Part shown: positions 45,408-63,344 of the stretch, piece by piece
How the letters are laid out: the number at the start of each line of letters is the position of its first letter
Numbering within the stretch: the stretch's first letter is position 1
Assembly: GCA_028714495.1 (NCBI GenBank)
Contig: JAQTMH010000002.1
Span: 75,471 to 139,470 of the forward strand
Origin: Patescibacteria group bacterium
GTDB taxonomy: Bacteria; Patescibacteriota; Patescibacteriia; JAHIZJ01
Length of the DNA stretch: 64,000 bases
Reading direction: 5' to 3'
The notes under the pieces: model-generated
Databases searched by the model: none
What the model was told of the DNA's origin: nothing
The model's input: only the letters and a program-made list of their open reading frames with translations
Position numbers and translations under genes: made by a program

Positions 45408-45497
45408 AATTTAAAATTAATAATTTAAAATGTAAAATTATTGTATCCGCCCAGGGCGGATTCTTTCATTTTTAATTCTTAATTTTGAATTTTTCCC
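45408..45497 (-). promoter_or_regulatory. rfbB promoter (TTTACA-N17-TAAATT) with R-element copy 2 directly upstream
   Basis: Minus-strand -35 at 45431-45436, -10 at 45408-45413. R-element (ATCCGCC-CAGG-GGCGGAT plus A/T arm) at 45441-45497. Same architecture as the asparaginase-operon promoter. Confidence 0.5.
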
Positions 45498-45504
45498 AGA
45501 ACCA

Positions 45505-45558
45505 CGTTGGGTTCTGGGAACCCCGTACCCAAGCCTGCGAGCGGTACGGGGTTAATTG
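45505..45558. repeat. two adjacent GC-rich palindromic hairpins (REP-like) 3' of ahcY
   Basis: CCCAGAACC-acgttg-GGTTCTGGG (9-bp stem) and AACCCCGTACC-N13-GGTACGGGGTT (11-bp stem). Confidence 0.55.
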
Positions 45559-45560
45559 CC

Positions 45561-46820
<1,260 letters not shown>

Positions 46821-54411: not shown

Positions 54412-56094
54412 TTAGGGAAATTCCAGTTTATAAAAGCTTGCCTGGTCAGACAGAGTGGAGAGTTCGATTAGTTTAATCGTGGGTAAAAACGCTGCCGCTT
54501 GCTTCTCGAGTTCTTGGCAATTTATTTCAACCGGCTGGCAATAATAATAAATCGGCGCCTGCTTTGCCAAACCTTTTATTTCGACGCGCAACTTAATGTT
54601 TCCCAGGTCAAAAGCGGCGATAACTTTGCGCTCAGGAAAAATCACCTTGTCCCCTTTGCCGGTTATCACCACGGAATTCTTCGGGGTTAATTTGACAACC
54701 TCTTGGCTAACTTTTTCATATCCGGCAATATCTCGACGAATTTTTGCCAGACCATAAAGCGGATCAAAAAGCACCGTCGTGATCGAAAGAGCGACGATTA
54801 AACATGCCAGGAAAATTCCGAAAAATATTTTCAACTTTTTCGTCTTAAACCAATCGATCATCCATGATAAACCAGTTGCGCAAAACGGCAAGCTAAAAAT
54901 AAACACTGGCAGCCAATAACGCAGATATGAGTGTCCGAGGATGATCCGATCCGGGTCGGAGAATTCCTTGAGATCCCAGCTGCCATAATACAAAACCAAC
55001 CAAATTAAAATAAACAAGAATGCTAAGGCGTATGTCTTTTGCCCTCGGGTAATTCTTCCTGATTCGCTTGGCTTTAGCCAATCTCTCAGCCAATTTCTAA
55101 AGAATAAAACTAGGCCGAGACCAAAGGGAATCGCGTACCAGGGAAAGATGACGATAAAATAATCATAAAAATTGTGAAGCGCCAGTCCGAGGTTCAAGCC
55201 AAAGGGAAATAGCGCCTGGCTGATTTTTAAACCTAGGCCGGTTGTGGCTGAACCGATCGTGCCAAAATCAAGCGTTTCCTGGGAATAGCCAAAAGCCAGA
55301 GGGTTTCCGTATAACTTATTGTTTAAATAGCCAATCGGCAACAAGAACAGGCAGAGAGTGAGTAAAGAGACGGCGGCTTTAAGCCAGCTAATGCGCTTTT
55401 TAAAAACTAAAAATAATATTAACAGCATTGGCAAAAGCCAGATGGCCTCTGAAACTCGAAATATTATCGCTAAACCCAACGCAATTCCAAGAAAGATGTA
55501 ATTCATTAGTTTGGAAAAACGCACTGCCTTGATAAAAAAATAAACCGTGATAATAACGCAACTCGCGAAAGGAACATTGTGCATCATGCTTCGTCCTGAA
55601 AAATACCAAAAAGCCGGCTGGAGAAAAAGCAGCAACGAGCTAAAAAAAGCAATTCTATTATCAAATAACTGTTTTACCAACAAATAGAAAAATATCACGG
55701 CGATGATCGCGATCATCGGTGTGATAAATCTGACCATTGCTAGACTAAAAACTTTCGCTATTAAACCATAGATTAGCGGCAAACCAATAAAGCTATTCGG
55801 CACCAGCTTGCCCTGTACCATATCGGTATAGGGCTTGCCCTCAACTAAATCCACGCTGCGCGGTCGGATCAAGCCCGGAGCAAAGGAATCAAGCGGCTCT
55901 GAAACGCTTAAGCTGGAACTTTGCGCAAACGACTTGGTAAAAAAATAATTGGCTGTTTCGTCAGGAGATACAAATTTTGTAGGCGAACCAAAGGAACTGA
56001 AAGAGTACAAAACGAAAAAAGCCGCCCCAAGCAATACTAACATTATTAGCTCGGGTTTGCGCTTCAAAAAAGATGTTCTCGGTAATAACGTCAT
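54412..56094 (-). CDS. GT-C fold polytopic membrane glycosyltransferase (PMT/ArnT-like), second copy
   Basis: 560 aa, at least 11 TM helices; DE motif in the first periplasmic loop (FVSPDETANYFF); large C-terminal soluble domain. Confidence 0.65.
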   Translation of the reverse strand: MTLLPRTSFLKRKPELIMLVLLGAAFFVLYSFSSFGSPTKFVSPDETANYFFTKSFAQSSSLSVSEPLDSFAPGLIRPRSVDLVEGKPYTDMVQGKLVPNSFIGLPLIYGLIAKVFSLAMVRFITPMIAIIAVIFFYLLVKQLFDNRIAFFSSLLLFLQPAFWYFSGRSMMHNVPFASCVIITVYFFIKAVRFSKLMNYIFLGIALGLAIIFRVSEAIWLLPMLLILFLVFKKRISWLKAAVSLLTLCLFLLPIGYLNNKLYGNPLAFGYSQETLDFGTIGSATTGLGLKISQALFPFGLNLGLALHNFYDYFIVIFPWYAIPFGLGLVLFFRNWLRDWLKPSESGRITRGQKTYALAFLFILIWLVLYYGSWDLKEFSDPDRIILGHSYLRYWLPVFIFSLPFCATGLSWMIDWFKTKKLKIFFGIFLACLIVALSITTVLFDPLYGLAKIRRDIAGYEKVSQEVVKLTPKNSVVITGKGDKVIFPERKVIAAFDLGNIKLRVEIKGLAKQAPIYYYCQPVEINCQELEKQAAAFLPTIKLIELSTLSDQASFYKLEFP

Positions 56095-56266
56095 ACTATC
56101 TCATAGTTTACACGTTTTTCGACATAATTCAAACACCCTTAGGCATACTAAATTGTCCTACCCAGCAATCCCTCTCGTGTAATTGCTGACCTCTCTATCC
56201 CTTGCCAAAGAATGGCCTTTTGTGGTTAAATATAAACGTAAATCAAAATTAAATAGGCAAGGAACC

Positions 56267-56356
56267 ATGAAATTTTTAGTTACCGGCGGCGCTGGAGCCT
56301 GCCCCACACCCCGGCAAGTTAATAGAATCATTTATCAACATAATTACTACTTATGA
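56267..56356 (+). CDS. 29-codon upstream ORF / 5' gene stub duplicating the first 10 residues (MKFLVTGGAG) of the downstream epimerase; its stop overlaps the epimerase ATG (ATGA)
   Basis: Translation MKFLVTGGAGACPTPRQVNRIIYQHNYYL; AGGAA 3 nt upstream. All six nucleotide differences against the epimerase's first 10 codons are synonymous. Confidence 0.4.
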   Translation: MKFLVTGGAGACPTPRQVNRIIYQHNYYL

Positions 56357-57279
56357 AATTCTTAGTAACCGGTGGTGCGGGGTTTATTGGCTCTCATCTG
56401 GTCGAAACCCTGATCAAACAAGGCAATCAAGTCCGAATTTTAGACAATCTCTCAACCGGCAAACGAAAAAATCTGCACCCAAAGGCCGAATTCATCGAAG
56501 CAGACATACGGAACCTTGATCAAACACGCCCGGCTTTTGTAGGGATTGACGGTGTTTTCCACGTCGCCGCTCTTCCCCGTGTCCAGGCTTCAATCGCTAA
56601 TCCCCTAGAATGCAATGGTTCAAATATCGATGGCACTTTAAACGTAATCTGGGCGGCCAAGGAAGCAGGTGTGAAAAAAATTGTTTACTCAGCCTCCTCA
56701 TCAGCTTATGGAGATTCGAAAGAGCTGCCTCTGAAAGAAACGATGAAGTCTGATCCGATCAGCCCCTACGCTCTCCAGAAATACGTCGGCGAGGTATATA
56801 TGAAATTAGCCGCCATGTTCTGGGGATTGGAAACAGTCTCACTCCGTTATTTCAACGTCTTTGGTCCGAATATGGCCGCCGAAGGAGCCTATGTTACAGT
56901 CATCGCCATATTTAACAGGCAAAAGCTTAATAATCAGCCACTAACTGCCACTGGAGACGGCGAGCAAACCCGTGATTTTACCTATGTCGATGACGTTATC
57001 CGAGCCAATTTATTAGCCATGGCTAGCACAAAAGTCGGCCAAGGCGAAGTTATTAATATCGGTAATAGCGACAATCGCAGCGTGAATTACATCGCGAAGG
57101 TAATCGGCGGGCCAGTCGAACATATCGCGGCGCGTGTCGAACCGCGCAACACTCTGGCTGACACCAGTAAAGCGAAGGAGCTTATCGGCTGGCAGCCTCA
57201 AGTCAGCTTCGACGAGGGTTTAAAAAGAACTATTAAATGGTATCAAGATAACGCGAATGAATTCATTACCCGAAAATAA
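56353..57279 (+). CDS. NAD-dependent epimerase/dehydratase (GalE/WbpP-like UDP-sugar 4-epimerase family)
   Basis: MKFLVTGGAGFIGSHL Rossmann N-terminus, S-x24-YxxxK (SPYALQK); 308 aa. Confidence 0.85.
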   Translation: MKFLVTGGAGFIGSHLVETLIKQGNQVRILDNLSTGKRKNLHPKAEFIEADIRNLDQTRPAFVGIDGVFHVAALPRVQASIANPLECNGSNIDGTLNVIWAAKEAGVKKIVYSASSSAYGDSKELPLKETMKSDPISPYALQKYVGEVYMKLAAMFWGLETVSLRYFNVFGPNMAAEGAYVTVIAIFNRQKLNNQPLTATGDGEQTRDFTYVDDVIRANLLAMASTKVGQGEVINIGNSDNRSVNYIAKVIGGPVEHIAARVEPRNTLADTSKAKELIGWQPQVSFDEGLKRTIKWYQDNANEFITRK

Positions 57280-61221: not shown

Positions 61222-61929
61222 ATGGACTTTATAAAAAAAGGATGGAAAAGCTTTTCCGATAAAATGGGCGGCAGGCTGATTTATTGGCTCAGCGTATCGC
61301 ATCAATACCAGCTGTATCGAGCATATCACCGGATATTTAAGAAACATATTAAACCGGGACAAGAGCTTATAGACGTCGGCGCTGGACGGTTATTTTATCG
61401 TCGTATAATCCAAAATTATACAAAGAACTACAAAAGTATCGACGTCCAAAAAACTCATCCGGAAATTGATTTTATTGGAAGCAGCTCACATACCGGGCTA
61501 CCCGATAATTCGTACGACATAGTTTTTTGTTCAATGGTACTCGAACATACACCCAATCCCCAGGAGAGCTTTAAAGAATTCTTTCGTCTATTGCGACCCG
61601 GCGGCATAGCAATCATTGCCGTCCCCTTTTTAATATATCTTCACAACGAACCTCATGACTATTATCGCTATACCAAATATGCTTTGCGTCTGTTTGTTTC
61701 ATCATCTGGTTTGCAGGAAATTACACTTGATGAAATAGGCGGGATATTCGGTGCTTTCGGCAGTGTTGTAGCCATGGCATTGATCGGCCTAACCTGGAGA
61801 ATTCCGGTAATAAACTGGATAGTCTTTGCGTTCAACATGGGGATTCAGCTGATTCTATTGACTCTTGATATGCTATTCCCAACTAAAAAAATATTCCCGG
61901 CTAATTATCTACTGGTTATAACAAAATGA
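61222..61929 (+). CDS. class I SAM-dependent methyltransferase
   Basis: ELIDVGAGRLFYRR (motif I) and LLRPGGIAII (motif II/post I). Confidence 0.7.
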   Translation: MDFIKKGWKSFSDKMGGRLIYWLSVSHQYQLYRAYHRIFKKHIKPGQELIDVGAGRLFYRRIIQNYTKNYKSIDVQKTHPEIDFIGSSSHTGLPDNSYDIVFCSMVLEHTPNPQESFKEFFRLLRPGGIAIIAVPFLIYLHNEPHDYYRYTKYALRLFVSSSGLQEITLDEIGGIFGAFGSVVAMALIGLTWRIPVINWIVFAFNMGIQLILLTLDMLFPTKKIFPANYLLVITK

Positions 61930-62144
61930 ATAAACGGATATGTTTTTTTGCTCCTGATATGGCAGAACTTTTCTTTCCCGAATTTCGCAAAGTAAAATTT
62001 GGCGGATCTGAAGTCCAACCGCACATGCTGGCAAAAGAACTGGCGCGGATTTGCGGATTTTTCTGTTTCTGCGGTTACAATGCTTCAACTATCTTTCTTG
62101 GTCTTTTTATTAGATACCGATATTATGGCAAATTATTTTCATAA
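61926..62144 (+). pseudogene. N-terminal fragment of a GT4 glycosyltransferase gene (truncated remnant)
   Basis: MNKRICFFAPDMAELFFPEFRKVKFGGSEVQPHMLAKELARICGFF resembles a GT4 N-terminus (GGxExx...LAxxLA). It then degenerates and stops after 72 codons. ATGA overlap with the methyltransferase stop. Confidence 0.5.
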
Positions 62145-62243
62145 ATAACATGCTTTTTTCATATTTTTATATCGCTCTGGATAAAATCTTTTTTACCGCC
62201 AAAATCCTGCCGTTAAATTATTTAGTAATCGCGAGAAAATAAT

Positions 62244-63344
62244 ATGAGAATCGGCATTGCTGCTAGAGGGCTTTCGGAATTATGCGGCGGCGTGAAGCAA
62301 TATATCGAAAGTCTGACCAAATCTTTATTGCAAATTGATCATGAAAATCAATACTTTATTTTTTATGATAGCAAAACTCCTCAAGCAAAGTTTGACCAAG
62401 ACAAAGAAATCCTCTTAAAAACCAAGAATAAGCTCTGGTATGATTACGTAAAGTTGCCGCGAGCATTAATAAAACATAAAATCGATATATGCATTTTTCC
62501 GAAAAATGTTGTACCTTTCAACATAAAATGCAAGTCAATCGTGATTATTCACGATCTTCTTCATATCATGGATCCAAAAGTTTATAATCGGTTTGATTCT
62601 TTTTACATGCAATTAGCAATACCTTTTTCAGTAAAAAAAGCCGATATTGTTGTAACCGTCTCTGAAAATACTAAAAAAGATCTTCTAAAAATAACCGGTA
62701 TAAATGAGAAGAAAATTCACGTTATACATGAAGCGGCAGACGAAAAGTATCGAGTCATTCAAAATCACAATGAAGCCAAGAGACAATTATTGCATAAATA
62801 CCACATCACCTCCCCTTTTCTTTTATATGTCGGCTCGCTATCACCAAGAAAGAATATCCCGTGTTTGATTAAGGCCTTCGAAATATTAAATAAAACAAAC
62901 AACGTTCCTAGACAACTTGTACTGGCCGGTGGTAAAAGTTGGAAAGAGAAAGAAATTCTTAGGCTAATTAGAATATCTCCGCAATCTAAAAATATTAATT
63001 TAACCGGATTCATTACCGATGACGATTTGCCACTAATTTATAATCAAGCCGAGCTATTTATATATCCCTCACTCTACGAAGGATTTGGATTACCGATCTT
63101 GGAAGCCATGGCTTGCGGCTGTCCTGTTGTCTCCTCAAATTCAAGTTCATTACCGGAAGTGGCCGGAGACGCCGCGTTGTATTTCGATCCCACCAATGAA
63201 CATGAACTAGTAAACAAACTCTGTGCGGTAGCCGCAAACGATGAACTAAAGAAAAATCTTATTACAAGAGGATTAGTAAGAGCGAAACAATTCAAGTGGG
63301 AATATGTCGCTCAATCGATAATTAAAATCTATCATGAACTCTGA
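62244..63344 (+). CDS. glycosyltransferase family 4 (GT-B)
   Basis: C-terminal EGFGLPILEAMACGCPVVSSNSSSLPEV is a GT4 signature; 366 aa. Confidence 0.85.
   Translation: MRIGIAARGLSELCGGVKQYIESLTKSLLQIDHENQYFIFYDSKTPQAKFDQDKEILLKTKNKLWYDYVKLPRALIKHKIDICIFPKNVVPFNIKCKSIVIIHDLLHIMDPKVYNRFDSFYMQLAIPFSVKKADIVVTVSENTKKDLLKITGINEKKIHVIHEAADEKYRVIQNHNEAKRQLLHKYHITSPFLLYVGSLSPRKNIPCLIKAFEILNKTNNVPRQLVLAGGKSWKEKEILRLIRISPQSKNINLTGFITDDDLPLIYNQAELFIYPSLYEGFGLPILEAMACGCPVVSSNSSSLPEVAGDAALYFDPTNEHELVNKLCAVAANDELKKNLITRGLVRAKQFKWEYVAQSIIKIYHEL

What the first reader, a model, noticed from the sequence alone, without database searches (positions are those of the whole stretch)
56267..56356. Translationally coupled upstream mini-ORF that duplicates the epimerase N-terminus with only synonymous differences
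A 29-codon ORF with its own AGGAA begins MKFLVTGGAG, identical to the first 10 residues of the epimerase. It ends with a TGA overlapping the epimerase ATG.

The six nucleotide differences against the epimerase's first 30 nt are all synonymous. This could be the stub of a second, deleted epimerase/dehydratase gene such as an rfbB-like paralogue, or a selected leader peptide/uORF that couples or attenuates epimerase translation.

Either way it records recombination inside the glycan locus. It is consistent with the GT4 fragment at 61926-62144.
Basis: seen in the sequence. Interest (0 to 1): 0.55.

Follow-up and report, generated by a model that had tools for sequence, protein, structure and literature searches.

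The report
Recombination scar upstream of epimerase gene
Between the promoter and a working sugar-epimerase gene of an uncultured Patescibacteria bacterium lie 86 bases left from older copies of the gene's start (one direct, one inverted), which mark a recombination hot spot in a surface-sugar gene cluster and are most likely a tolerated scar, not a purpose-built regulator.

Summary
A 29-codon ORF (56267-56356) starts MKFLVTGGAG, matches the epimerase start at 24/30 nt with six differences, all synonymous, and ends in a TGA overlapping the epimerase ATG. Three assemblies carry it identically. It is the relic of an SDR gene start, but probably not the stub of an extra deleted gene. The stub ATG lies 35 nt after a promoter-like site, where nine stub-less relatives place the epimerase ATG (33-47 nt). 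Its tail holds a decayed inverted copy of SDR codons 1-12 on the minus strand (56331-56297), so the layout is direct, inverted, intact gene. The "own AGGAA" carries little weight, because only 3 of 50 genes here have an SD-like motif and a second copy has lost it. That second copy (L095) shares the promoter-stub-tail-codon-12 module at 93% identity, while its epimerase body is 71% identical and its downstream genes differ. This is a recombination mosaic. The stub peptide shows no constraint (3 synonymous, 3 non-synonymous codon changes). A leader hairpin and uORF coupling are possible but untested. Ordinary kind, low interest.

The parts
56202..56231 (+). Promoter-like site: -35 TTGCCA, 18-nt spacer, TG-extended -10 TTAAAT. 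It ends 35 nt before the stub ATG.
   Evidence: One search gives this as the best site upstream of the stub (9/12 plus extended TG). Relatives have equivalent TG-extended sites ending 33-47 nt before their epimerase ATG. Nothing comparable precedes 56353. The -10 and 5'UTR (56220-56260) are 41/41 identical in L095. This is a consensus and comparative inference with no transcript data. The tool's own scan does not list the site, because the second base of the -10 is T.
56267..56296 (+). Direct relic: codons 1-10 of an extended-SDR gene (MKFLVTGGAG).
   Evidence: 24/30 nt match the epimerase start and 26/30 match the RfbB start. A 23-mer from it occurs verbatim at the start of two intact SDR genes in metagenomes, where it continues into Phe-Ile/Val-Gly codons. 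Homology breaks after codon 10.
56267..56356 (+). 29-codon open frame across the scar, with its stop overlapping the epimerase ATG (ATGA).
   Evidence: It is preserved in L095 with 3 synonymous and 3 non-synonymous codon changes. Shuffled tails stay open with P = 0.34, and two of the three real frames are open.
56297..56331 (-). Inverted, indel-bearing relic of SDR codons 1-12, starting at its own ATG (56331-56329). It may extend to 56290, overlapping the direct relic by about 7 nt.
   Evidence: Extended to 56290 and aligned with the RfbB 5' end: 0/3000 shuffles reach the score. Against the epimerase 5' end: 10/3000. Restricted to 56297-56331: p about 0.02, and 0.3-0.4% of random window 35-mers score as well. 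It replicates in L095 (74/5000) and with the reconstructed arm (24/5000).
56332..56352 (.). 21-nt AT-rich spacer between the inverted relic and the gene. It contains the 6-nt palindrome TAATTA (56341-56346) near its centre and is 100% identical in L095.
   Evidence: Read directly from the sequence. Identity.
56353..57279 (+). Intact NAD-dependent nucleotide-sugar 4-epimerase-like gene (308 aa, extended SDR).
   Evidence: PF01370 at 203 bits. The best solved relatives are UDP-hexose/HexNAc 4-epimerases (WbpP, WbgU), E about 1e-58 to 1e-60. NCBIfam hits (TviC, GalE) all fall below equivalog cut-offs.
56292..56394 (+). Imperfect inverted repeat, or long-range leader hairpin. The left arm lies in the stub tail and the right arm is epimerase codons 1-14, with the start codon in the enclosed loop.
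   Evidence: MFE fold. Leader-coding duplex of -35.0 kcal/mol in the window (1/1000 shuffles) and -33.8 in L095 (2/1000). Five stub-less relatives give -10 to -14 kcal/mol, not different from shuffles. One pair changes on both sides (56297:56391, G-C to A-U).
56220..56387 (+). Module shared with contig L095 (7.1% divergence), ending at a recombination breakpoint in epimerase codon 12. The left limit is unknown because L095 starts here.
   Evidence: The maximum-likelihood breakpoint lies after 56387, with divergence 0.071 to the left and 0.335 to the right (2dLL = 58.7). Third-position identity is 11/15 before codon 16 and 0.42 after (p = 0.014).

Best explanation
The 86 bases between the promoter and the epimerase gene are a non-adaptive scar of aberrant recombination or template switching at the conserved 5' end (Rossmann-motif codons) of the SDR gene that heads this glycan operon.

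**Shown**
- Three copies of an SDR gene start lie in the order direct (56267-96), inverted and decayed (56331-56297), and intact gene (56353 onward).
- The first copy sits where the gene's start codon belongs relative to the promoter.
- The whole module is shared with a second Patescibacteria contig. That contig's epimerase body belongs to another sub-clade and its downstream genes differ, with the identity breakpoint in codon 12.

**Inferred**
- The direct stub is the start of the gene that formerly occupied this slot. It was a diverged homologue, which explains why only synonymous differences are seen.
- It was displaced when new sequence was joined in at codons 10-11.
- The inverted piece arose by a fold-back or template-switch step, or from an inversely oriented paralogue such as RfbB.
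- The same conserved codons later served as the crossover point for swapping the downstream glycan cassette.
- Transcription still starts at the old promoter, so the mRNA carries a leader of roughly 115 nt.
- The old ATG happens to open a 29-codon frame that ends at the epimerase AUG. Ribosomes can therefore read through the leader hairpin and reinitiate, which probably made the rearrangement tolerable without having been selected for.
For: **Anatomy and statistics of the three copies**
-.

**Promoter geometry**
- A TG-extended promoter-like site ends 35 nt before the stub ATG in the window.
- Equivalent sites end 33-47 nt before the epimerase ATG in L003, L005, L090, L092, L096, L097 and L099.
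- No comparable site precedes 56353.

**Absence from relatives**
- Nine orthologous loci lack any stub or second SDR gene upstream. They are P0002, P0004, P0006, P0007, P0009, P0010, P0012, P0013 and P0044.
- Of 88 SDR N-terminal motifs in 90 loci, only this one is truncated.

**The stub came from a diverged functional gene**
- All six differences from the epimerase are synonymous.
- Its core is no closer to its own epimerase (16/21) than to orthologues elsewhere (14-17/21).
- Its 23-mer heads intact SDR genes in metagenomes.

**Mosaic with L095**
- Non-coding stretches are 41/41 and 61/61 identical, and the breakpoint lies after 56387.
- L095's epimerase is 80% identical to L096 and 71% to the window, and its downstream genes differ.

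**No sign of selection on the uORF**
- 3 synonymous against 3 non-synonymous codon changes, and AGGAA is lost in L095.
- Only 3 of 50 genes have an SD-like motif.
- P(open frame across the tail) = 0.34, and P(still open after 8 random substitutions) = 0.63.

**Concerted changes between copies**
- 56284/56370 are C/C in the window and T/T in L095. 56297/56391 are G-C and A-U.
- These fit ongoing conversion or template switching between repeat arms, as described in PMC8604942.

**Known parallels**
- Gene remnants and partial duplications occur at O-antigen cluster junctions (PMC3715488).
- Inverted triplications are later remodelled by deletion (PMC4689423).
- One-sided homology-facilitated illegitimate recombination is described in PMC3240628.
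Against: - **Thin comparative base:** only two instances of the module exist. L095 is a short-read Logan contig that begins inside the module, so its left flank is unseen and a chimeric join cannot be fully excluded.
- **Uneven divergence inside the module:** 10 differences fall in 48 nt of the stub and junction, against 5 in the 130 flanking nt (Fisher p = 0.0009). Seven of the eleven differences between 56261 and 56308 are plus-strand C-to-T. A single recent transfer followed by neutral drift does not predict this. It needs either local hypermutability or conversion, or constraint on the flanks.
- **Hairpin is maintained:** no difference breaks a hairpin pair and one pair is compensated on both sides. 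That also fits a selected RNA structure.
- **Modest support for the inverted relic:** p is about 0.005-0.02 once bases shared with the stub are excluded.
- **Homology stops at the ATGs:** in all three copies homology begins exactly at the ATG, and the flanks are unrelated. A simple local inverted triplication would not respect that boundary.
- **No transcript data:** promoter calls are consensus-based and untested in Patescibacteria.
Confidence: 0.6

Rival explanations
1. Co-opted regulatory leader. Whatever its origin, the module now works as a translational device. The leader hairpin (left arm in the stub tail, right arm at epimerase codons 5-14) dampens initiation at 56353. Translation of the 29-codon uORF from the old start codon melts the left arm and delivers ribosomes to the overlapping UGA/AUG. 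Epimerase output is therefore coupled to uORF translation, and the module is kept and exchanged between glycan loci as a portable promoter-leader cassette.
For: - The duplex is strong and specific, and it is present in both copies: -35.0 and -33.8 kcal/mol, with 1-2 of 1000 shuffles reaching it. It is absent from five stub-less relatives.
- None of the 16 differences between the copies breaks a helix pair. One pair changes on both sides, from G-C to A-U.
- The uORF frame, length and ATGA overlap are intact in both copies.
- The leader flanks are 100% identical while the stub centre has diverged about 20%.
- 4-nt stop/start overlaps are a normal gene junction in this genome, with four among adjacent pairs.
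- The promoter lies upstream of the stub.
Against: - The module is absent from nine orthologous loci, whose AU-rich, SD-less leaders serve the same gene without it.
- The whole-leader fold has z = -1.42 only.
- Predicted accessibility around the epimerase AUG barely changes with or without the stub and tail, 0.57 against 0.66.
- Most differences are C-to-U, which keep G.U pairs automatically, so pair maintenance is weak evidence.
- Conversion between inverted-repeat arms gives the same double change without selection (PMC8604942).
- Peptide changes are 3 synonymous to 3 non-synonymous, and the open frame is expected by chance.
- There is no Rfam family match.
Confidence: 0.17
2. A complete second SDR gene, an rfbB-like or duplicated epimerase paralogue, once lay between the promoter and the present epimerase. 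An internal deletion then removed everything from codon 11 to just before the present gene.
For: - The stub is a bona fide SDR start with only synonymous differences, so it belonged to a functional gene.
- It is slightly closer to the window's RfbB start (26/30) than to the epimerase start (24/30).
- Tandem SDR genes do occur in such loci, for example in L101.
- An ATGA junction is typical of adjacent operon genes here.
Against: - No orthologous locus has a second SDR gene at this position. Nine loci were checked, including three with the same divergent PMT_2 or 517-aa gene next to the epimerase-GT2 layout.
- The stub ATG occupies the start position of the epimerase itself relative to the conserved promoter.
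- The tail is not the 3' end of an SDR gene. Its similarity to the epimerase 3' end is not significant, with 214/500 and 61/1000 shuffles reaching it.
- Instead the tail holds an inverted 5' end, which a simple deletion does not explain.
Confidence: 0.15
3. Chance similarity or assembly or amplification artefact.
For: - MKxLVTGGAG is a very common N-terminus.
- Short-read assemblies can mis-join repeats.
Against: - The sequence is identical in the MAG and in two independent assemblies from different runs.
- A diverged second copy exists in a third run.
- The arms are imperfect, so they are not amplification chimeras.
- The repeat and matrix scores are far above background.
Confidence: 0.03

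Closest known systems
Gene remnants and partial duplications at recombination junctions of polysaccharide (O-antigen, capsule) gene clusters
   Same: - A truncated, non-functional piece of a cluster gene is left between intact genes.
- It lies next to a boundary where blocks of different relatedness meet.
- The cluster is a mosaic made by recombination in conserved sequence. PMC3715488 describes wzy remnants, a partial wzy duplication in group D3, and group D2 as a D1/E recombinant.
   Different: - Here the remnant is only 10 codons and sits inside the 5' leader of the first gene.
- It is accompanied by an inverted copy.
- The host is a Patescibacteria MAG.
- No IS or H-repeat element lies at the junction.
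- No intact counterpart gene is seen in relatives.
Inverted triplication, tandem inversion duplication, DUP-TRP/INV-DUP, and template switching between short inverted repeats
   Same: - The topology is direct-inverted-direct, with the central copy inverted.
- The junction overlaps by a few bases.
- A short palindrome lies at the turn-around.
- Later remodelling by deletion and arm homogenisation is described in PMC4689423 and PMC8604942.
   Different: - The scale is tens of bases, not kilobases.
- The copies are not near-identical.
- Homology starts exactly at the ATG in all three copies.
- The direct stub differs from the gene only at synonymous sites, which points to a diverged homologue and not a fresh local copy.
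Homology-facilitated illegitimate recombination and sequential gene displacement
   Same: - One end of the exchange lies in homologous sequence and the other is an illegitimate join.
- The displaced resident gene leaves a relic next to the incoming one (PMC3240628; orphan relics in T6SS arrays, PMC5361080).
   Different: - Neither donor nor recipient state is observed directly.
- Natural competence of this organism is unknown.
- The relic here is a 30-nt 5' stub, not a whole orphan gene.
Leader-peptide or uORF translational coupling and hairpin unmasking (for example erm leader peptides, coupled ribosomal-protein operons). Recalled from general knowledge, not tested here.
   Same: - A short upstream ORF traverses one arm of a hairpin whose other arm lies at the start of the downstream gene.
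- The stop overlaps the start (AUGA).
   Different: - There is no conservation across orthologues.
- No stalling motif or SD sequestration is seen, and the genome is SD-less.
- There is no evidence of regulation.
- The hairpin is explained by common descent of the arms.
JUMPStart/ops-type conserved leaders upstream of different polysaccharide clusters. Recalled from general knowledge, not tested here.
   Same: A non-coding leader is shared almost identically by two glycan clusters with different gene content.
   Different: - Only two instances are known.
- There is no ops-like motif or known cognate NusG paralogue.
- The identity extends into the coding start and ends at a recombination breakpoint, as expected of a conserved flank and not of a dispersed element.

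Membership tests
Extended SDR NAD-dependent epimerase/dehydratase (PF01370): downstream gene 56353-57279 | Full-length domain match above Pfam's gathering score, with the N-terminal TGxxGxxG motif. | tested here: met
   203 bits against a cut-off of 20.9, covering residues 4-237. The N-terminus is TGGAGFIG. Solved 4-epimerases match at E about 1e-60. No NCBIfam equivalog cut-off is reached, so the substrate is unassigned.
Extended SDR: the stub 56267-56356 as a gene | Complete TGxxGxxG motif and an SDR fold beyond it. | tested here: not met
   The stub reads TGGAGACP, with the third glycine missing. Homology ends after codon 10 and the ORF stops at codon 30.
Conserved regulatory uORF or leader peptide | Present upstream of the orthologous gene in related genomes. 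| tested here: not met
   Absent from nine orthologous loci with readable upstream DNA and present in one, L095.
Conserved regulatory uORF or leader peptide | Peptide or reading frame under purifying selection. | tested here: inconclusive
   The frame and length are kept in both copies. However, there are 3 synonymous against 3 non-synonymous codon changes, P(open by chance) is 0.34, and P(still open after 8 random substitutions) is 0.63.
Conserved regulatory uORF or leader peptide | Own translation-initiation signal. | tested here: inconclusive
   The window has AGGAA 1-6 nt before the ATG, but in L095 it is ACGAA. Only 3 of 50 genes have an SD-like motif, so starts here rely on AU-rich leaders, and both ATGs have one.
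Conserved regulatory uORF or leader peptide | Stop codon placed so that terminating ribosomes can reinitiate on the downstream gene. | tested here: met
   An ATGA overlap at 56353-56356 in both copies. Four other 4-nt overlaps occur in the window.
Conserved regulatory uORF or leader peptide | Demonstrated translation and an effect on downstream expression. | not testable with these tools
   Needs ribosome profiling, a reporter or cell-free translation.
Inverted triplication or template-switch rearrangement | Three copies of one segment with the central copy inverted. | tested here: met
   Direct copy at 56267-96, inverted copy at 56331-56297, and the gene start at 56353. The inverted copy gives p about 0.02 in the window, 0.015 in L095 and 0.005 with the reconstructed arm. 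Extended by the 7 nt shared with the stub, it gives 0/3000 against the RfbB start and 10/3000 against the epimerase start.
Inverted triplication or template-switch rearrangement | All copies derive from one local segment: near-identical at origin, with homology not limited to coding sequence. | tested here: not met
   Homology starts at the ATG in each copy and the upstream flanks are unrelated. The stub is no closer to its own epimerase (16/21) than to foreign orthologues (14-17/21). All six differences are synonymous.
Inverted triplication or template-switch rearrangement | Junctions at microhomology or short inverted repeats. | tested here: inconclusive
   The direct and inverted copies share about 7 nt (56290-56298), and TAATTA lies at the centre of the spacer. 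Both could be coincidence.
Gene remnant at a recombination junction of a polysaccharide cluster | A truncated homologue of a cluster gene lying at a boundary between blocks of different relatedness. | tested here: met
   The stub and inverted relic lie within 120 nt of the breakpoint after 56387, with divergence 7.1% on one side and 33.5% on the other. L095 has different downstream genes.
Gene remnant at a recombination junction of a polysaccharide cluster | An intact counterpart of the remnant at the same position in some relative. | tested here: not met
   No second SDR gene lies upstream of the epimerase in any of nine relatives.
Known structured RNA family (Rfam 15) | Covariance-model match. 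| tested here: not met
   No match at E <= 1 in 55900-56600 on either strand.

The most novel reading that the evidence does not exclude
The promoter, uORF, hairpin and first twelve codons together form a portable expression module for glycan operons in these Patescibacteria. It is kept nearly identical while the cassettes behind it are swapped. Translation of the relic uORF is required to open a leader hairpin and hand ribosomes to the epimerase start. That would make it a translational coupling device born from a rearrangement scar in an SD-less genome.
Probability: 0.13. Interest if true: 0.5.

Novelty: new member of a known kind. Interest (0 to 1): 0.24.

Why it matters
- **Where glycan cassettes recombine:** the scar shows, at base resolution, where glycan-locus cassettes recombine in an uncultured Patescibacteria lineage. 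The crossover lies in the conserved Rossmann-motif codons of the first gene, as in classical O-antigen clusters.
- **Annotation warning:** an ORF with a plausible RBS, a conserved N-terminus, synonymous-only differences and a coupled stop can still be a scar.
- **Practical value:** the shared module is a marker for finding alternative glycan cassettes at the same chromosomal site.
- **If the minority reading holds:** it would be an example of a regulatory leader created by a rearrangement. That remains untested.

Tried and rejected
1. **Tail as the C-terminus of a deleted paralogue** (NRIIYQHN against KRTIKWYQDN by eye). Not significant, with 214/500 and 61/1000 shuffles reaching the score. 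Rejected.
2. **Left/right identity contrast as evidence of a foreign plus-strand arm** (PMT_2, 561-aa protein and rfbA at 28-47% against epimerase and GT2 at 69-83%). Relatives show the same contrast among themselves, for example L003 against L005 at 35% for PMT_2 and 85% for the epimerase. It reflects constraint, not transfer.
3. **Genome-contig scan with the epimerase.** It returned only distant relatives, at most 63% identity. It was useful only as background.
4. **Metagenome scan for the GC-rich 22-mer 56297-56318.** No hits. In hindsight this is the variable part of the module. The second and last scan went to the stub's 23-mer and found only intact SDR genes, so the conserved 60-mer (56310-56369) was never searched in metagenomes.
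5. **Viral scan for the conserved tail.** No hits.
6. **Rfam on the region.** No match.
7. **Internal promoter for the epimerase inside the tail.** The best candidate scores only 8/12, CTGCCC-N18-TAGAAT. CATAAT at 56339-44 has no usable -35.
8. **GT4 identity of 61926-62144.** No Pfam match, no tblastn match, and 0.0 bits against a profile of ten GT4 N-termini.
9. **A second inverted relic upstream of rfbB.** It is only an 11-nt AT-rich match.
10. **Cluster look-up of PMT_2, P0001 and P0011.** All are singletons, so it gave no information on L095's left flank.
11. **P0044, the other MKFLVTGGAG homologue.** Its locus has no stub.
Full report
**Observation**

The region reads exactly as described. 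From 56267 an ORF runs ATG AAA TTT TTA GTT ACC GGC GGC GCT GGA GCC TGC ... TAC TTA TGA (MKFLVTGGAGACPTPRQVNRIIYQHNYYL*). Its TGA at 56354-56356 overlaps the ATG of a 308-aa gene at 56353-57279. The first 30 nt match the first 30 nt of that gene at 24 positions. The six differences are all third-position and synonymous.

It is the top direct repeat in the region. It is the third-best hit in the 64-kb window to a position matrix built from 87 SDR gene starts, after the two intact SDR genes, scoring 11.6 against 4.5 for the next hit. It is also the clear outlier when each long ORF's first 36 nt are compared with its own upstream 250 nt, scoring 33 against 22. Two independent Logan assemblies from different sequencing runs are identical to the window over 301 nt, so it is not an assembly artefact.

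**Context**

The window comes from a Patescibacteria (CPR) MAG.
- The downstream gene is an extended-SDR nucleotide-sugar 4-epimerase-like protein. It scores 203 bits on PF01370, and its closest solved relatives are WbpP/WbgU-type UDP-hexose 4-epimerases. No NCBIfam equivalog cut-off is reached.
- It heads a plus-strand operon of an ArnC/PgfS-like GT2, a GT4, an asparagine-synthase-like gene, a methyltransferase and another GT4.
- It is transcribed divergently from a GT39/PMT_2-like membrane glycosyltransferase and rfbA/rfbC.
- A genuine dTDP-glucose 4,6-dehydratase (RfbB, 470.7 bits against a 365.1 cut-off) lies at 45403-44405 on the minus strand. It starts MKFLITGGAG, and its first 30 nt match the stub at 26/30, better than the epimerase does.

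**What the stub is**

A 23-mer from the stub occurs verbatim at the start of two intact, unrelated extended-SDR genes in JGI metagenomes. There it continues into Phe-Ile/Val-Gly codons. In the window homology stops after codon 10. So the stub is a genuine SDR gene start, broken after GGA.

Only 22 of 90 possible single-base changes in these 30 nt are synonymous. Six out of six synonymous differences is therefore unlikely under neutral decay: about 2e-4, or about 0.004 if the functional copy drifts at synonymous sites as well (and arithmetic). The stub's core is also no closer to its own epimerase (16/21) than to orthologues in other lineages (14-17/21). The stub therefore diverged while it was part of a functional gene. 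It is not a fresh local copy of the present epimerase. Such stubs are rare: of 88 SDR N-terminal motifs in 90 loci (762 kb), this is the only truncated one.

**What the tail is**

I first suspected the tail encoded the C-terminus of a deleted paralogue. That similarity is not significant.

RNA folding instead showed the GC-rich part of the tail pairing with epimerase codons 5-14. This led to the actual finding. The minus strand from 56331 reads ATGATTCTATTAACTTGCCGGGGTGTGGGGCAGGC..., and it aligns from its own ATG, with several indels, to SDR gene starts.
- Extended to 56290 and aligned with the RfbB start, 0 of 3000 shuffles reach the score. Against the epimerase start, 10 of 3000 do.
- Restricted to bases outside the stub (56297-56331), p is about 0.02, and only 0.3-0.4% of random window 35-mers score as well.
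- The test replicates on the second copy (74/5000). It strengthens when the arm is reconstructed from both copies (24/5000), where GGTGCGGGG is matched 9/9.

The layout is therefore: direct relic (56267-96), inverted decayed relic (56331-56297), a 21-nt AT-rich spacer with a central TAATTA palindrome, then the intact gene. The GC-rich 22-mer is unique in the window, and no Rfam family matches the region.

**Promoter geometry**

The best promoter-like site upstream is TTGCCA-N18-TTAAAT with a TG extension, at 56202-56231. It ends 35 nt before the stub ATG. Seven relatives have equivalent sites, six of them TG-extended, ending 33-47 nt before their epimerase ATG: L003 38, L005 37, L090 35, L092 33, L096 47, L097 42, L099 43. 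Nothing comparable precedes 56353. The tool's stricter scan lists no site, and none of this is experimentally verified. Taken at face value, the stub ATG occupies the ancestral start position of this gene slot, and the stub is transcribed as part of a leader of roughly 115 nt.

**Relatives**

Nine orthologous loci with readable upstream DNA have neither a stub nor a second SDR gene upstream. They cover epimerases 65-83% identical to the window's: P0002, P0004, P0006, P0007, P0009, P0010, P0012, P0013 and P0044. Three of them have the same divergent layout. Their leaders do not pair with their coding starts: -10 to -14 kcal/mol, not different from shuffles, against -35.0 kcal/mol in the window with 1 of 1000 shuffles reaching it.

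**A second copy, and a mosaic**

Contig L095 comes from a sister run, SRR22315506. Its epimerase (P0011) is only 71% identical to the window's. It carries the same module.
- Positions 56220-56260 are 41/41 identical.
- Positions 56309-56369 are 61/61 identical.
- The first 45 nt of the gene are 91% identical.
- Beyond that, identity falls to about 65%, with third positions saturated.
- The maximum-likelihood breakpoint lies after 56387 (codon 12), with divergence 7.1% to the left and 33.5% to the right (2dLL = 58.7).
- Third-position identity is 11/15 in codons 1-15 and 0.42 afterwards (p = 0.014).

For scale, L003 and L005 have epimerases 85% identical, yet share only 75 identical bases across their 114-130-nt upstream regions. 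L095's epimerase body groups with L096 (80%) and L099 (79%), and its downstream genes differ: GT4, methyltransferase, GT2, flippase. The module is therefore shared by recombination, with the right-hand crossover in the Rossmann-motif codons. L095 starts at the equivalent of 56219, so the left boundary is unknown. A chimeric contig cannot be wholly excluded. It would still require both genomes to share at least 31 nt of the leader.

**What the two copies say about constraint**

All eleven differences upstream of the gene fall between 56261 and 56308. Seven are plus-strand C-to-T, one is G-to-A, two are A-to-G and one is G-to-C. Ten of them lie in 56263-56310, against five differences in the 130 nt flanking that stretch (Fisher p = 0.0009).
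- In L095 the ORF is intact (MKFLVTGGVGTCPAPRQVNRIIYQHNYYL*) with the same ATGA overlap.
- Codon changes are 3 synonymous and 3 non-synonymous.
- AGGAA has become ACGAA.
- Shuffled tails stay open with P = 0.34, two of the three real frames are open, and the ORF survives eight random substitutions with P = 0.63.

So neither the open frame nor its preservation argues for selection. Only 3 of 50 long ORFs in the window have an SD-like motif, and the orthologous epimerases have none.

The hairpin is predicted in both copies, at -40.2 and -40.4 kcal/mol, and no difference breaks a pair. One pair changes on both sides (56297:56391, G-C to A-U). The direct repeat also covaries: 56284 and 56370 are C/C in the window and T/T in L095. 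Most changes are C-to-U, which keep G.U pairs automatically. Conversion or template switching between repeat arms produces the same double changes (PMC8604942). This is compatible with a selected structure but does not demonstrate one.

**Explanation**

The best-supported reading (about 0.6) is a tolerated scar of aberrant recombination or template switching at the conserved 5' end of the SDR gene that heads the operon.
- The direct stub is the start of the gene that formerly occupied the slot.
- The inverted piece is a fold-back product, or derives from an inversely oriented paralogue.
- The same conserved codons later served as the crossover for exchanging the downstream cassette.
- Transcription still comes from the old promoter.
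- The accidental uORF, ending at AUGA, lets ribosomes cross the leader hairpin and reinitiate. This would explain why the rearrangement was viable. That last step is inference.

The exact order of events is unresolved. A pure local inverted triplication does not explain two observations: homology starts exactly at each ATG, and the stub differs from the gene only at synonymous sites.

There are three rival readings.
- **Co-opted uORF-hairpin coupling device, possibly a portable promoter-leader module (about 0.17).**
The missing intact counterpart in relatives, the promoter geometry and the inverted relic in the tail all disfavour it.
- **Artefact or chance (about 0.03).**

**Known parallels**

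- Gene remnants, partial duplications and block boundaries in Salmonella O-antigen clusters (PMC3715488).
- Inverted triplications remodelled by deletion (PMC4689423).
- Template switching between imperfect inverted repeats (PMC8604942).
- Homology-facilitated illegitimate recombination (PMC3240628).
- Relics left by sequential gene displacement (PMC5361080).

Leader-peptide coupling and JUMPStart-type leaders are resemblances recalled from general knowledge. I did not test them.

**Verdict**

This is a new member of a known kind, a recombination scar in a glycan locus. Its anatomy is resolved in some detail, and it carries a small, untested chance of being a co-opted translational leader. Interest is low to moderate.

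The peripheral claim that 61926-62144 is a GT4 fragment could not be confirmed. That DNA is extra relative to L005, where the methyltransferase gene abuts the GT4 gene directly.

Noticed in passing
whole window (50 ORFs of at least 150 aa): The genome is essentially Shine-Dalgarno-less. Only 3 of 50 long ORFs have an SD-like motif 5-16 nt upstream. Starts are preceded by AU-rich sequence, and 4-nt ATGA-type overlaps are frequent, with four among adjacent pairs.
   Followed up: partly
window 61930-62243: This is 314 nt of extra DNA between the methyltransferase gene (61222-61929) and the GT4 gene (62244-63344). In relative L005 the two genes abut directly. The stretch contains a 72-aa ORF whose ATG overlaps the methyltransferase stop (ATGA). 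By eye it has a GG.E.Q...LAKELA-like stretch, but it gets no Pfam, tblastn or local-profile support as GT4. It may be another scar.
   Followed up: partly
window 56353-56397 (+) and 45403-45359 (-): The epimerase and the RfbB gene lie 11 kb apart in inverse orientation. Their first 45 nt are 37/45 identical, including 12 identical bases at the start. This is a potential substrate for inversion or conversion, and RfbB is the best match of the inverted relic.
   Followed up: partly
window 56261-56308 against L095 43-90: Seven of the eleven differences between the two copies of the module are C-to-T on the plus strand, reading from window to L095. They are packed into 48 nt, while 41 and 61 flanking nt are identical. 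This is a strand-biased mutation cluster, or conversion patchwork, that a single transfer plus drift does not explain.
   Followed up: partly
window 45440-45555: Three consecutive GC-rich hairpins sit in the AT-rich intergenic region upstream of RfbB: ATCCGCCC-AGG-GCGGAT, TTCCCAGAACC-ACGT-TGGGTTCTGGGAA, and CCCCGTACC...GGTACGGGG. They look like stacked terminators or a structured element after the gene at 45561-46817.
   Followed up: no
L092 544-1848; L097 1282-3923: In some relatives one or two UDP-glucose/GDP-mannose dehydrogenase genes lie directly upstream of the orthologous epimerase on the same strand. The window epimerase's best NCBIfam hit is TviC (UDP-GlcNAcA 4-epimerase), below cut-off. 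This hints that the enzyme may act on a uronic-acid sugar nucleotide.
   Followed up: no
window 57257-57279: The epimerase and the downstream ArnC/PgfS-like GT2 gene overlap by 23 nt. The same 23-nt overlap is seen in L096 and L097, and a 20-nt overlap in L092, so the overlap is conserved across lineages.
   Followed up: no
L003 12865 onward; L092 7383 onward: Relatives encode a protein of about 900-920 aa that fuses a methyltransferase domain to a GT4 domain. In the window and L005 the methyltransferase and the GT4 are separate genes.
   Followed up: no
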